Below are positions 16,801 to 19,800 of a stretch of DNA of 64,000 nt, piece after piece. Position 1 is the stretch's first letter. Each line of letters opens with the position of its first letter. The stretch comes from Trypanosoma brucei (lineage: Eukaryota): the NCBI GenBank assembly GCA_000002445.1, contig CM000208.1, forward strand, positions 3,968,001 through 4,032,000, given 5' to 3'. The position numbers are program-made.

Positions 16801-19800
16801 AGTACACAGAACGATAATACGGAAACACAGTCATCACAGGTATTGGTAAGACAAAATGAGCCCATAATATCCCCGTTGTGCAACGTGGTGCGTGCACGTC
16901 GTCAAACTAGAGTAGTTTGCCTGATAAAGAAACACGGTTCAGAAAAGGAAAGAGCACTGGAAATGACAAAGATTGCAAAATTGGCAGTTAAGGCATATAA
17001 AGGTAACTAAGACTGCCATGTTTGTGAAATGAATTTTGGGAGAAGTGGTTTACTAGTGGAGCACATGGTCACACATACAAGGAAATGATATCGCAGGTTG
17101 GGAATCAACAGAAAAGGAGCATAAAAGAAGAGGCAGATGAGGAAAAAGAAAAGCTAGGGTGTCGATGGTTCCATATGAAATATGTGTTGTATGGATGGTT
17201 AAAAAGGAATATGCTAACAAAACATCCTGAATAGCAGCAAACAGAAGACAAAAAATGAGAATCAACCTGCAGATCATAGCATGGATGATACAGAATAAGG
17301 AGGATAGAACTGGAGTGTCAAAGGTGTAAAATAATTCTAAAGAGTAAAACTTAACTGACCAGACACAAATGCATTCCAAAGTCAGACAATACTACAGGAG
17401 ACTTCAAAGAGAAAGAAAAGCCACTTAAAGAAAAATGCTCCATGTGTGGAAAGAAGTACCATTAGAGTTGACTTCTTTGTCATATGCGTGAAAAAAACAA
17501 GACACAATGAGTCTTTGAGTTCAAGGTAGCAAATAAAACATTCAAGAGCCAGGAAAGGATCCTTGTAAGATCATTTAGTGAGAAAAAAGGCATTTCAAGA
17601 GGCAGGGGAAACAATTGATTGGAAAAGACCGAGAAAAGGCCAAAAATATGGAGGCACACAGTACTAGAAGAAGGAATAAATTTTGTGTGTGCAAGGTGTG
17701 ATAGTGCATACAAGACACAACACTCACTGGTGTGGCACACACGAACCTACCATAAGGTGCCACAACTGTTAAAAGGAAGAAGAAAGATGAATTGGTAATA
17801 ATAACTCCTACAATGCAGGAAACGACCCAACGCCCGTACTGCCCAATGAGGTGCACACAGAAGCAGTACCGGACAAGGCATCTTCAAGAGAGACACGGTA
17901 AGCCGAAGAAGGAAGCAGTGTAAAACTTGCTGAAGGTCAAATGTGAGGAGTCACCAACCCATCCACTGGTGTGCCCGATATTACTTCCACTAAGGAAAAA
18001 AAGGTATAGAGAGCCTGAAGGAAAAGAAAATATATAACAGTGGCAGCTGGCCCAATTCCTAATGGGTATCTTTAAAATAAGTGGCCACAATGAACCCACT
18101 CTATCCTCTTACAAAAAAGGAAATACAATCAAGAAGTAAAAGGGAGAAGATCGCCAGAAAAGCTGAATATCCCATCCCCATCTTCCCAGCCGTTGGTATT
18201 ACAGACATTCCATAATATGGAGGGGACAAAACGCCATTTCGAAATTTTTTCCCTAGTAGAGACAAAAAAGGAACAGTATCAATGGAGGAAGCGAGGACTG
18301 ATTCATGGCTATTTAAACATCTTCCAAAGATATGCAGAGTATAGAAAGTAGCAGAGCAGCTAATGAAGCACATGTAGATTAATTTCACAATGAAAAAGAA
18401 TAAGAAATTTTTTCTAATTTTTGCTGCCTATGTAAGATTATTATTTTTTTAAAATCAAGAACTTTAAAGTTTTAAAAGATTTTGCTCTTTTTTTTATTAA
18501 TTTACTATTCTAATATATTTAACTTTTATTGATGAAAATGTGAAAATTTGGTAAAAATTGTATTATATTGGACTATGGGTGTAAAGTAGTAGTATAATAG
18601 TGTATGAAAAGTGACTGGTACTCTAATTTATTCATCTTATTTATTTTATAGATATTAATTATGGTTCGAATAGCAATGGTAACAGCAAGGTAGTGATAGG
18701 AGAGTGTTGTAAGTGTGTATATACTAATATTATACAAGTGTTTATGGTAAATATCTGGTGGGAAAAAAAAGAAACAGTTAAACCTATGGGTGAGTAAAGG
18801 TAGGTAAGGGAGTATGAAAGAACGAAGAATATCATCAAAGAAAAGCATAACCACAAAGAGAGTAATGAAGAGGGAAGAACATGGTATATTCGCAGTTTTG
18901 TACACATATGATTATGGGCAGCATCATAGAAAAGGACATGATGAAGACGACAATGAGAAAAGGAGAAAGTGCAGTGTAAAGCCAAAATATTTCACTACGT
19001 TATTCATAGAAGCATTGACTGAAGATAAAAAGGAGGGGACATGTAGAGTCAAGCGGATTAATGTGTGAAAGTACAGCAGATGATAATGACACATCAAAAA
19101 AGAAAAGTAGGAGCCCATTTATGTGTTGTATTACTCAAAACTGAATATATGCGACGGCGGATATGATTGAATCTATAGCTTTTAATCTGATGGAGTATCT
19201 TAATGTCCAACAGTGAATAAACAGAACCTGGAGCTGTAAGAAGGAATTGGGTAAGTGTGGGATAATATTTAAGTCCTCTTTTTATCAAATATGATAATAA
19301 TAGCTACCATATGTGTAAAACAAAATAAAAATAGTCAGGCTAATTTTTAAACTAAGATTAACAATATATTAGTGTGTAAAGTAAATTAAAAATAAAAAAA
19401 CAGAAACTGCATTCAATAGAAGATGTGTGCTTGGCATACGATCTCTATGAAGTGGAAACAATCAGTTACAATATTCTACCAATTCGGTATTTGTACGCTT
19501 TCCAGACAATAAGAGCTTTTAAGGGAGTGTAATTTATGTAAAAGTAGAAGTTGATTCACAGCTGACGAAGCGTGTTAACGGAGATAAAAGGAAGAGGTAG
19601 CTACGTACAGAGCACAACTTTCAATTTTTTAACCGCAAACGTTATAGAGCAGAATATAAAGACCTGAAGGAAAAGGTCAACCAATTTGGCAGTAAGAAGA
19701 AGGATTGAAATTATATTTCGAGGGAAAGAGACAGTGGAAAATTGATAGATGACGTAGAGCAATGACGACCATAAATTTCACATTTTTAGACATAAATACA

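What the first reader, a model, noticed from the sequence alone, without database searches (positions are those of the whole stretch)
18900..19545. The 70bp-to-VSG spacers share a recurrent three-block architecture (Z, X, Y) that looks like the decayed 3' end of an ancestral ORF plus a downstream palindromic element.
Across at least 10 cassettes the spacer contains the same blocks in the same order. Block Z sits about 200 bp after the 70-bp repeats. It is ORF-like, for example GESAVYRLNGVAALTAENLIEAEKG at 29770, EKEYSVWENGVATLSVEK at 60050 and RKNAVYWQKDVAVLSVQKATEK at 51190. Block X sits about 150-250 bp further on. It preserves a reading frame ending in a stop: DCAPHFTHKWIDAxxEMVxxxVxNLIMNHNIxL*. 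Block Y sits about 300 bp after X. It contains the imperfect palindrome CCAATTCCGTATTGG(TATACTGG) followed by GAGCGAGTAATnCATATAAAA, and lies about 0.5-1.1 kb upstream of the VSG ATG. The frame-preserving conservation of X and Z suggests the spacer derives from a gene that was once part of every cassette. Y has a fixed position and a hairpin-capable core, which could make it a processing or recombination landmark. This would be a 5' homology block analogous to the 3' 16-mer. I cannot tell from memory whether this has been described.
Basis: seen in the sequence. Interest (0 to 1): 0.6.

Follow-up and report, generated by a model that had tools for sequence, protein, structure and literature searches.

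The report
Diverged shared spacer upstream of VSG genes

Summary
The window is a Trypanosoma brucei TREU927 subtelomeric VSG array with 17 cassettes, all on the + strand.

**Observation: real, but understated and mis-shaped.**
- All 17 spacers between the 70-bp repeat and the VSG carry part of one homologous sequence, always collinear and always on the + strand.
- A single-sequence nhmmer search gives E-values from 1e-6 to 1e-50. A reversed-window decoy gives no hits.
- Homology starts at the end of the 70-bp repeat and runs without interruption for 0.25 to 1.4 kb.
- Z, X and Y are no better conserved than the DNA between them (mean pairwise identity 0.567 against 0.570).
- The same module occurs in a T. 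equiperdum contig.

**Interpretation: largely unsupported.**
- X matches no protein in two very large databases and no Pfam family.
- Its codon signal is weak and no stronger than in neighbouring DNA. Only its stop codon is unusually well kept (11 of 12 copies).
- The Y palindrome has 5-bp arms, is intact in a minority of copies and shows no covariation.
- Copies are 50-64% identical and share at most 18 identical bases in a row, so they are poor recombination substrates.

**Best reading.** This is the "co-transposed region" of VSG cassettes. It spreads by whole-cassette duplication and then drifts, while the cassette ends (70-bp repeat, VSG 3' end) are kept similar by gene conversion. It is ordinary, with one small twist: published papers call these regions unique.

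The parts
18690..18736 (+). 70-bp repeat unit that opens the cassette of the finding
   Evidence: 70-bp repeat HMM hit, E 3.7e-12; core GAGAGTGTTGTAAGTGTG at 18700
18752..19641 (+). Conserved spacer module of this cassette (70-bp-proximal part of the co-transposed region); contains Z, X and Y
18962..19010 (+).
   Evidence: Translation; identity of Z columns 0.549, no higher than background
19112..19216 (+).
   Evidence: stop triplet kept in 11 of 12 copies; no protein homologue
19479..19545 (+). GGGAGTGTAATTTATGTAAAAG); the palindrome arm is broken here
   Evidence: no covariation, no consensus fold
19642..20486 (+). VSG-proximal part of the spacer, with no detectable homologue in the window
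   Evidence: nhmmer finds only itself; one weak hit at 19735-19780, E 7
20487..21404 (+). Start of the VSG (pseudo)gene of this cassette (ATG 20487, signal-peptide-like MCDKFVVVLLLASGS)
   Evidence: VSG 3'-end HMM hit at 21663-22317
1936..2656 (+). Spacer module copy, B-type VSG cassette 1
5786..6023 (+). Spacer module copy (first ~220 positions only), B-type cassette 2
9182..9414 (+). Spacer module copy (first ~280 positions only), B-type cassette 3
22388..23882 (+). Long spacer module copy (HMM 1-1353), upstream of A-type VSG 24128
   Evidence: exact Y palindrome at 23085
26643..26921 (+). Spacer module copy, Y part only (HMM 527-808)
   Evidence: weak collinear remnant at 26549-26591
29603..30658 (+). 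Spacer module copy (HMM 1-938)
32917..33240 (+). Spacer module copy, Z-X part only
35050..35416 (+). Spacer module copy of a B-type cassette, Z-X part; links the B-type spacers to the main family
39019..40486 (+). Long spacer module copy (HMM 1-1357), used as seed
43404..44883 (+). Long spacer module copy with the best-preserved X reading frame (43710-43859, stop 43860-43862)
47270..48750 (+). Recent duplicate of 43404-44883, part of a 3.8-kb cassette duplication at 95.9% identity
51021..51904 (+). Spacer module copy (HMM 13-851), with the 5' half of X deleted
54780..55074 (+). Spacer module copy, Y part only (HMM 534-830)
57228..57681 (+). Spacer module copy, Z-X part only; contains the exact DCAPHFTHKWIDA
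59843..60533 (+). Spacer module copy (HMM 1-563)
   Evidence: weak collinear remnant at 60797-60856
62974..63677 (+). Spacer module copy (HMM 1-692), with an exact Y palindrome at 63573

Best explanation
The spacers are the co-transposed regions of T. brucei VSG cassettes, and they are old paralogues of one another.

A cassette consists of the 70-bp repeat, a spacer of about 0.9-2.1 kb, the VSG and the VSG 3' end. It multiplies as a unit by tandem duplication (shown). After duplication the spacer is not kept similar to its relatives and drifts close to neutrally, to about 50-64% identity (shown for the identity levels; near-neutrality is inferred). The two cassette ends stay recombination-competent because gene conversion keeps them alike (shown for one tract).

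Z, X and Y are just stretches that a human reader can still recognise in a uniformly diverged sequence of 0.7-1.4 kb. The part next to the VSG has been replaced or has decayed beyond recognition in most cassettes.

A passive consequence, which is inferred, is that the spacer is too diverged to support strand exchange. Exchanges that begin in the 70-bp repeats therefore cannot resolve until the VSG 3' end, so the whole VSG with its own 5' UTR is copied intact. The signals for VSG mRNA trans-splicing lie in the VSG-proximal part of the spacer, not in Z, X or Y.
For: - **Identity of the locus.** The VSG at 55362-56900 is 100% identical to a T. b. brucei TREU927 VSG. Pfam finds VSG_B, Trypan_glycop and Trypan_glycop_C domains. 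70-bp repeats precede each cassette.
- **Homology.** Collinear, + strand only, in 17 of 17 cassettes, with no decoy hits.
- **Weak remnants.** Sub-threshold hits fall exactly where collinearity predicts: 2029-2069, 26549-26591 and 60797-60856.
- **Uniform conservation.** Identity is even along the module.
- **Star-like divergence.** Pairwise identity is 0.47-0.64 for all well-aligned pairs, and is the same in the left and right halves of the three long copies.
- **Little site-to-site constraint.** Rate heterogeneity is only mild and invariant columns are scattered.
- **Whole-cassette duplication seen directly.** 43331-47146 matches 47194-51013 at 95.9%.
- **Ends are homogenised, the spacer is not.** 53793-54367 matches 56655-57230 at 97.7% and stops inside the 70-bp repeat. 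The adjoining spacers are 52% identical.
- **Poor recombination substrate.** The longest exact match between independent spacers is 18 bp, median 10 bp.
- **Splicing signals elsewhere.** Polypyrimidine tracts occur only 65-85 nt upstream of the ATG of three intact VSGs.
- **Not local to this window.** The same module is present in T. equiperdum contig L001 (E 6e-70).
Against: - If drift were purely neutral and vertical, the VSG-proximal part should be as recognisable as the 70-bp-proximal part. It is recognisable only in 3 independent cassettes, so replacement, deletion or recombination inside the spacer has to be assumed.
- The same module precedes both A-type and B-type VSGs. This needs past recombination between module and gene, or a spread of the module together with the 70-bp repeats.
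- The X stop triplet is unusually well kept, and site conservation is slightly more variable than a uniform-rate model predicts (variance 2.26 against 1.51). Some constraint cannot be excluded.
- Only 13 independent copies plus 2 from T. equiperdum could be studied.
Confidence: 0.7

Rival explanations
1. Gene relic. [quoted passage not shown] X is the decayed C-terminal end of that gene with its stop codon, and Z is an upstream remnant.
For: - The stop triplet at the end of X ranks first of 618 triplet positions, present in 11 of 12 copies as TAA, TGA or TAG.
- Several gaps within X are three bases long.
- Codon position 2 is the least variable in X (0.251 against 0.316 and 0.320, p 0.04).
- In an independent alignment the X windows had the strongest periodicity in the matching phase (permutation p 0.035).
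- The X frame has fewer stops than the other + frames (4.4% against 6.8% and 8.8%).
Against: - No homologue in 5.8 billion or 1.84 billion proteins, and none in Pfam.
- pN/pS of 0.72 is unexceptional, and lower values occur downstream of the stop.
- Periodicity is stronger in the supposedly non-coding 108 nt after the stop (p 0.001).
- Internal stops or frameshifts occur in most copies, and Z and X are out of frame with each other in several.
- No stop-free stretch longer than about 50 codons contains X.
- Conserved stop-like triplets also occur in Y, in 7 of 8 copies.
- The hypothesis was formed on the same data used to test it.
Confidence: 0.17
2. Functional cis-element. Y, or another part of the module, is a sequence-specific landmark kept by selection. 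It could be a protein-binding palindrome, an RNA-processing signal, or a recombination or R-loop initiation site that acts when the cassette sits in an expression site.
For: - Y sits at a fixed position in 10 window copies and in T. equiperdum.
- Nine invariant and 13 nearly invariant columns fall within about 100 nt.
- Deletion of the co-transposed region together with the 5' end of VSG2 is reported to cause rapid switching (Davies et al. 1997, as cited in PMC8612549).
- The spacer's sense strand is purine-rich with positive GC skew. From general knowledge, that composition favours R-loops.
Against: - Y is no better conserved than the module average (0.585 against 0.570).
- The palindrome is complete in only 2-3 of 10 copies, with no covariation and no consensus structure.
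- There is no Rfam match.
- Y is missing from 7 of 17 cassettes.
- Y has no polypyrimidine tract.
- The only recent conversion boundary seen lies in the 70-bp repeat, not at Y.
Confidence: 0.08
3. Decayed VSG 3' end. The Z-X region would be the remnant of an upstream VSG C-terminal domain plus 3' UTR, as with the extra VSG pseudogenes found in some expression sites. The 16-mer-like TCATATATTTTAACAG that lies 54 nt after the X stop at 43916 and 47782 would be its 3' UTR element.
For: - A 14-of-16 match to the VSG 3' UTR 16-mer at 43916 and 47782.
- The C-terminal part of X is hydrophobic.
- Weak collinear hits of a VSG 3'-end HMM on the spacer consensus, E 0.79 and 6.7.
Against: - Those E-values are not significant, and the implied register puts the X stop beyond the position of the 16-mer.
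- X has no match to Trypan_glycop_C even at E 10.
- The 16-mer-like string exists only in one copy and its duplicate. Other copies read ATATAGTAATAAT at that position.
Confidence: 0.03
4. Chance resemblance in AT-rich, low-complexity DNA.
For: The spacers have 30-35% G+C and contain A-rich runs.
Against: - First-pass E-values reach 1e-50.
- No hits on the reversed window and none on the minus strand.
- Strict collinearity holds in 17 cassettes and in a second subspecies.
Confidence: 0.01

Closest known systems
Co-transposed region (CTR) of T. brucei VSG cassettes and expression sites (Davies, Carruthers & Cross 1997; discussed in Kim & Cross 2010, PMC2900300)
   Same: - It occupies the same position: between the last 70-bp repeat and the VSG start codon.
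- It has the same orientation as the VSG, is 0.9-2.1 kb long, and is duplicated together with the VSG.
- In practice it is non-recombinogenic and effectively single-copy at hybridisation stringency.
   Different: Published descriptions call each CTR unique (PMC2900300; PMC5698767). Here the 70-bp-proximal 0.25-1.4 kb of every spacer is detectably homologous to the others at 50-64% identity. Only the VSG-proximal part is private to each cassette. I could not read Marcello & Barry 2007, which analysed VSG flanks, so I cannot say whether this was already noted there.
70-bp repeats (5' boundary of VSG gene conversion)
   Same: The module starts directly at the end of the last repeat and is found wherever a repeat is found, upstream of both A-type and B-type VSGs.
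   Different: - The module is not repeated in tandem.
- It is 50-64% identical between copies, whereas 70-bp repeat units in the window are about 83-90% identical to one another.
- It is not matched by the 70-bp repeat HMM.
- It is not included in the recent conversion tract.
VSG 3' homology (C-terminal domain coding sequence plus the 3' UTR 16-mer and 14-mer)
   Same: Both are conserved flanks shared by otherwise dissimilar VSG genes.
   Different: - The 3' end is strongly conserved and actively homogenised (97.7% over 576 bp). From the literature, it contains an mRNA-stability element bound by CFB2 (PMC8051951).
- The spacer module shows no motif-level conservation and no homogenisation.
Upstream and downstream homology sequences flanking archival vsp/vlp genes of Borrelia hermsii (raised as an analogy for VSG flanks in PMC3467770)
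   Same: Both involve short shared sequences on either side of silent antigen genes that could set recombination boundaries.
   Different: Nothing here shows that Y or any other part of the module is used as a boundary. Identity and exact-match lengths are too low, and Y is absent from 7 of 17 cassettes.

Membership tests
VSG co-transposed region (CTR) | Lies between the last 70-bp repeat and the VSG start codon, in the same orientation as the VSG | tested here: met
   70-bp HMM hits, spacer HMM hits and VSG ORFs or 3'-end HMM hits alternate in this order in 17 cassettes, all on the + strand
VSG co-transposed region (CTR) | Moves or duplicates together with its VSG | tested here: met
   The 3.8-kb duplication 43331-47146 / 47194-51013 (95.9%) includes repeat, spacer and VSG. 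Transposition into an expression site itself cannot be tested here.
VSG co-transposed region (CTR) | Sequence unique to each cassette (as stated in PMC2900300 and PMC5698767) | tested here: not met
   Deep homology in 17 of 17 cassettes. The copies are still 'unique' at hybridisation or recombination stringency: 50-64% identity, longest exact match 18 bp. The VSG-proximal part is unique in most cassettes.
Decayed protein-coding gene (pseudogene) | Detectable similarity to a protein or protein family | tested here: not met
   No hit at E<=10 among 5.8e9 proteins. There is one artefactual hit among 1.84e9 representatives. Pfam has none apart from a single DUF5607 hit at E 0.067 in 1 of 9 members.
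Decayed protein-coding gene (pseudogene) | Codon-position bias of substitutions, or pN/pS below background, in the proposed frame | tested here: inconclusive
   Periodicity p 0.035-0.04 in X, but it is stronger just downstream of the stop. pN/pS of 0.72 is at the 6th-8th percentile only.
Decayed protein-coding gene (pseudogene) | Conserved position of the stop codon | tested here: met
   Stop in 11 of 12 copies, three stop types, rank 1 of 618 triplet positions. This is a post-hoc test on the data that suggested the idea.
VSG C-terminal domain + 3' UTR remnant | Similarity to the VSG 3'-end DNA profile or to Pfam Trypan_glycop_C | tested here: not met
   Best nhmmer E 0.79 with an inconsistent register; no Trypan_glycop_C hit at E<=10
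Structured hairpin element (RNA or DNA) | Base pairing maintained across copies, with compensatory changes | tested here: not met
   76% of cells paired, equal to shuffles (376 of 500); covariation 0.124 against 0.131; RNAalifold predicts 0 pairs; no Rfam family
Recombination homology block (like the 70-bp repeats or the VSG 3' end) | Enough identity between copies to support homologous exchange | tested here: not met
   Identity 0.47-0.64; longest exact match 18 bp, median 10 bp
Recombination homology block (like the 70-bp repeats or the VSG 3' end) | Conversion tract boundaries fall in the block | tested here: not met
   The only recent tract in the window (97.7%, 576 bp) ends at 54367 / 57230, inside the 70-bp repeat. 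This is a single case; boundaries in real switch events are not testable here.

The most novel reading that the evidence does not exclude
The ancestral VSG cassette may have been a two-gene unit. [quoted passage not shown] That gene spread with the repeats in front of both A-type and B-type VSGs in the T. brucei lineage, and its loss left the 'barren' co-transposed region.
Probability: 0.15. Interest if true: 0.5.

Novelty: new member of a known kind. Interest (0 to 1): 0.25.

Why it matters
- **A small correction to the literature.** It qualifies the textbook statement that each VSG cassette has a unique co-transposed region. The regions are ancient paralogues with a shared 70-bp-proximal module, and only their VSG-proximal parts are private.
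- **A view of how cassettes evolve.** The ends are homogenised by gene conversion while the interior, spacer and VSG N-terminal domain alike, is left to diverge. This fits the published idea (PMC2900300) that the spacer passively insulates each VSG.
- **A practical use.** The module could serve as a marker for delimiting cassettes and for dating duplications in VSG arrays.
- **Limits.** It does not reveal a new mechanism of antigenic variation. The gene-relic and landmark ideas would be modestly interesting if genome-wide data supported them.

Tried and rejected
- **Decayed VSG 3' end.** I tested whether X plus the 16-mer-like string at 43916 is a decayed VSG 3' end. I rejected this (and the alignment).
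- **Parental gene search.** I used a word-indexed search with a 9-sequence X alignment, an exhaustive HMMER search with an 8-sequence alignment of exact window translations and Pfam. Nothing credible came back. P0012 is a five-fold tandem repeat of YFTPKWIRLFTYLNSLL.
- **Fetching more T. brucei loci.**
  - Two exact-protein look-ups of the TREU927 VSG were not on record.
  - The two VSG homology searches returned almost no proteins with contigs.
  - Only one T. equiperdum contig could be fetched, so genome-wide tests were impossible.
- **Right-hand part of the long copies in other cassettes.** A search at E<=10 gave only sub-threshold hits.
- **Known RNAs.** Rfam and tRNA scans found none.
- **Antisense ORFs.** The minus strand has stop-free runs of up to 134 codons, but at inconsistent positions. 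They are explained by the purine-rich sense strand.
- **Literature.**
  - Marcello & Barry 2007 and Aline et al. 1985 are not held in the library.
  - No paper in the library contains the Y motif in a trypanosome context.
  - No paper found in the library describes homology between spacers.
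Full report
**What the window is**

The window is a head-to-tail array of VSG cassettes, all on the + strand.
- The 512-residue protein encoded at 55362-56900 is 100% identical to a VSG of Trypanosoma brucei brucei TREU927, on a 4.05-Mb contig.
- The large ORFs carry Pfam VSG_B or Trypan_glycop (A-type) domains together with Trypan_glycop_C.
- A 70-bp-repeat HMM finds repeat units at 22 places, which define 17 cassettes.
- A VSG 3'-end HMM (C-terminal coding sequence plus 3' UTR) finds 19 ends, each abutting the next 70-bp repeat.
- A cassette therefore reads: 70-bp repeat, spacer of 0.9-2.1 kb, VSG, 3' end, next repeat.
- The spacer is what the trypanosome literature calls the co-transposed region, or CTR (PMC2900300; PMC8051951).

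**Checking the observation**

The similarity is not an artefact of AT-rich sequence.
- One spacer (39040-40610), searched alone with nhmmer, finds ten others at E 1e-6 to 1e-50. After four iterations there are 14 collinear hits.
- All hits are on the + strand.
- The same queries find nothing on the reversed window.
- A second seed, taken from a B-type VSG cassette (35050-37000), also hits the main family in its first pass. It adds the three B-type cassettes at 1936-2656, 5786-6023 and 9182-9414.
- Every one of the 17 cassettes therefore carries some part of the same sequence.
- Sub-threshold hits fall exactly where collinearity predicts in cassettes that seemed to lack a part.
- A T. equiperdum contig fetched through a VSG homologue has the module after its 70-bp repeat (E 6e-70).

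**Where the observation needs correcting**

The homology is continuous, not three blocks.
- It begins right at the end of the 70-bp repeat (alignment). It runs for about 700-850 positions in most full copies and for about 1,360 in three independent cassettes (22388-23882, 39019-40486, 43404-44883, plus the recent duplicate 47270-48750).
- Mean pairwise identity is flat along the first 700 positions.
- Z, X and Y score 0.549, 0.566 and 0.585, against 0.570 for everything else. More than half of the circular shifts of the block mask (415 of 719) do as well.
- Only eight cassettes have all three blocks. Others are truncated to the Z-X part, to the Y part, or to the first 220-280 positions.
- The 300-850 bp next to the VSG start codon has no detectable relative in most cassettes.

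**How the copies relate**

- Pairwise identity is 0.47-0.64 for all well-aligned pairs, which is a star-like pattern. In the three long copies it is the same in the left and right halves.
- Site-to-site variation in conservation only mildly exceeds a uniform-rate star model (variance 2.26 against 1.51; 15% invariant columns against 9%). Invariant columns are scattered, not clustered into motifs.
- The longest run of identical bases shared by two independent spacers is 18 bp, with a median of 10 bp.
- The three long copies precede VSGs with no detectable protein similarity to one another. The non-coding spacer has therefore diverged less than the VSG N-terminal domains.
- The window shows the two processes that shape cassettes.
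  - A whole cassette has been duplicated recently: 43331-47146 matches 47194-51013 at 95.9%.
  - A 576-bp tract covering the VSG C-terminus, 3' UTR and first 70-bp repeat is 97.7% identical between neighbouring cassettes (53793-54367 and 56655-57230) and stops inside the repeat.
  - The spacers beyond that point are only 52% identical.

**Is X (with Z) the end of an old gene?**

Points against:
- A profile of the X peptides finds nothing at E<=10 in a 5.8-billion-protein collection.
- Pfam gives only one insignificant hit, DUF5607 at E 0.067 in 1 of 9 members.
- An exhaustive HMMER pass over 1.84 billion representatives gives one hit at E 9.5e-4. That protein is five tandem copies of YFTPKWIRLFTYLNSLL, so the score is a repeated chance match to the YFTxKWI motif.
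- Z and X are in different frames in several copies, and most copies have internal stops or frameshifts.
- pN/pS for X in its frame is 0.72, only the 6th-8th percentile of all windows and frames. The lowest values lie downstream of the X stop.
- Three-base periodicity of conservation is present in X (p about 0.035-0.04). It is stronger in the 108 nt after the stop (p about 0.001), where AAG-type triplet runs occur.

Point in favour:
- The stop triplet that ends X is the most conserved stop among 618 triplet positions. It is present in 11 of 12 copies, including T. equiperdum, as TAA, TGA or TAG. Stop-like triplets in Y are kept in 7 of 8 copies, and the test is post hoc.

I rate the gene-relic idea as possible but unproven, at about 0.15-0.2.

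I also tested whether X plus a 16-mer-like string at 43916 could be a decayed VSG 3' end. The profile comparison is not significant (best E 0.79) and is out of register. The string also exists in only one copy and its recent duplicate at 47782.

**Is Y a hairpin or a landmark?**

- The palindrome is CCAAT-N5-ATTGG, with 5-bp arms.
- Across ten copies only 76% of cells pair, which equals the shuffled control. Covariation is 0.124 against a shuffle mean of 0.131, and there is one compensatory change in total.
- RNAalifold predicts no consensus pairs.
- No Rfam family matches anywhere in the window.
- Y is absent from 7 of 17 cassettes.
- Y has no polypyrimidine tract. The only such tracts in spacers of intact VSGs lie 65-85 nt before the ATG, in the private part of the spacer.
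- The one recent conversion boundary lies in the 70-bp repeat.
- Nothing therefore marks Y as more than a readable patch.

**Most likely explanation**

The spacers are paralogous co-transposed regions.
- Cassettes multiply as units. This is shown by the 3.8-kb duplicate.
- Cassette ends stay alike through gene conversion. This is shown once, by the 97.7% tract.
- The interior is not homogenised and drifts. The identity levels are shown; near-neutrality is inferred from the flat conservation profile and the mild rate heterogeneity.
- The VSG-proximal part has mostly been replaced or lost. That step must be assumed.
- The presence of the same module in front of A-type and B-type VSGs implies past recombination between module and gene, or spread of the module together with the 70-bp repeats.
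- A passive consequence is inferred. At 50-64% identity the spacer cannot support strand exchange, so exchanges begun in the 70-bp repeats cannot end until the VSG 3' homology. Kim & Cross proposed this role for the CTR as an insulator (PMC2900300).

**Comparison with what is known, and novelty**

- The element is the known CTR.
- The accessible literature calls it unique to each cassette (PMC2900300; PMC5698767). None of the papers I could search or read describes homology between CTRs.
- I could not read Marcello & Barry 2007 or the 1980s flank-sequence papers, so prior description cannot be excluded.
- A specialist would not be surprised that duplicated cassettes share decayed upstream DNA.
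- I file it as a further, weakly conserved flank segment of VSG cassettes, with low to moderate interest.

**Limits**

- Only 13 independent copies in the window, plus two from one T. equiperdum contig, could be analysed.
- The T. brucei genome could not be reached with the available collections.
- The alignments are profile-fitted, which inflates identity somewhat.
- The coding and constraint tests have low power at this sample size.

Noticed in passing
43331-47146 and 47194-51013: A recent tandem duplication of a whole 3.8-kb cassette at 95.9% identity. The first copy's VSG is broken (longest ORF 300 aa, 45788-46690). The second is intact (ATG 49064 to 50557), and the two are 92% identical as protein over the shared part.
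   Followed up: partly
53793-54367 and 56655-57230: A 576-bp tract at 97.7% identity between neighbouring cassettes whose VSGs are only 35% identical as proteins. It covers the last ~245 bp of coding sequence, the 3' UTR and the first 70-bp repeat, and ends inside the repeat. It looks like a recent gene-conversion tract bounded by the 70-bp repeat.
   Followed up: partly
1649-1834 and 25801-26274: Very long, almost perfect (ATA)n / (TAA)n runs of 62 and 158 copies, sitting within or next to 70-bp repeat units. They are far longer than in the other cassettes.
   Followed up: no
13145-18398: About 5.2 kb with no 70-bp repeat, no spacer module and no recognisable VSG N-terminal domain, lying between two VSG 3'-end hits (12775-13144 and 18399-18676). 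The ORF at 14418-14762 has no Pfam match. The content is unidentified and could be a degenerate mobile element or other insert.
   Followed up: partly
41874-42222 and 42806-43336: Cassette 11 has two VSG 3'-end segments in tandem. A perfect 16-mer (TGATATATTTTAACAC, 42207) lies inside the long ORF 40610-42226, which suggests a read-through or frameshifted end followed by a second, orphan C-terminal domain and 3' UTR.
   Followed up: no
spacer modules, e.g. 39019-40486 and 43404-44883: Strong strand asymmetry in the spacers: A 39%, G 20%, T 27%, C 13% on the sense strand, with positive GC and AT skew. This makes the antisense strand poor in stop codons and produces spurious antisense ORFs of up to 134 codons at inconsistent positions.
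   Followed up: partly
43916-43931 and 47782-47797: TCATATATTTTAACAG, a 14-of-16 match to the VSG 3' UTR 16-mer, lies 54 nt downstream of the X stop. It occurs only in this spacer and its recent duplicate. Other copies read ATATAGTAATAAT at the aligned position.
   Followed up: yes
1936-2656, 5786-6023, 9182-9414, 35050-35416: The four cassettes with B-type VSGs keep only the first 220-750 positions of the module and were missed by the A-type-seeded profile. In T. equiperdum, however, a B-type VSG is preceded by a full left module (L001 6110-6934). There is possibly a spacer subfamily that partly tracks VSG type.
   Followed up: partly
22388-23882, 39019-40486, 43404-44883: Three spacers are homologous over ~1.36 kb, to within ~120-250 bp of the VSG region. 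Yet the VSGs that follow them (24128, 40721, 49064 and its pseudogene twin) show no BLASTP similarity to each other at E<1e-3. The non-coding DNA has outlasted the coding N-terminal domains.
   Followed up: partly
L001 (T. equiperdum OVI contig CZPT02001321.1), 2603-2855, 3720-3807, 6002-6934: The same spacer module follows both 70-bp repeats of this contig. One copy is nearly full length for the left part. The other is fragmented into two pieces about 870 bp apart.
   Followed up: partly
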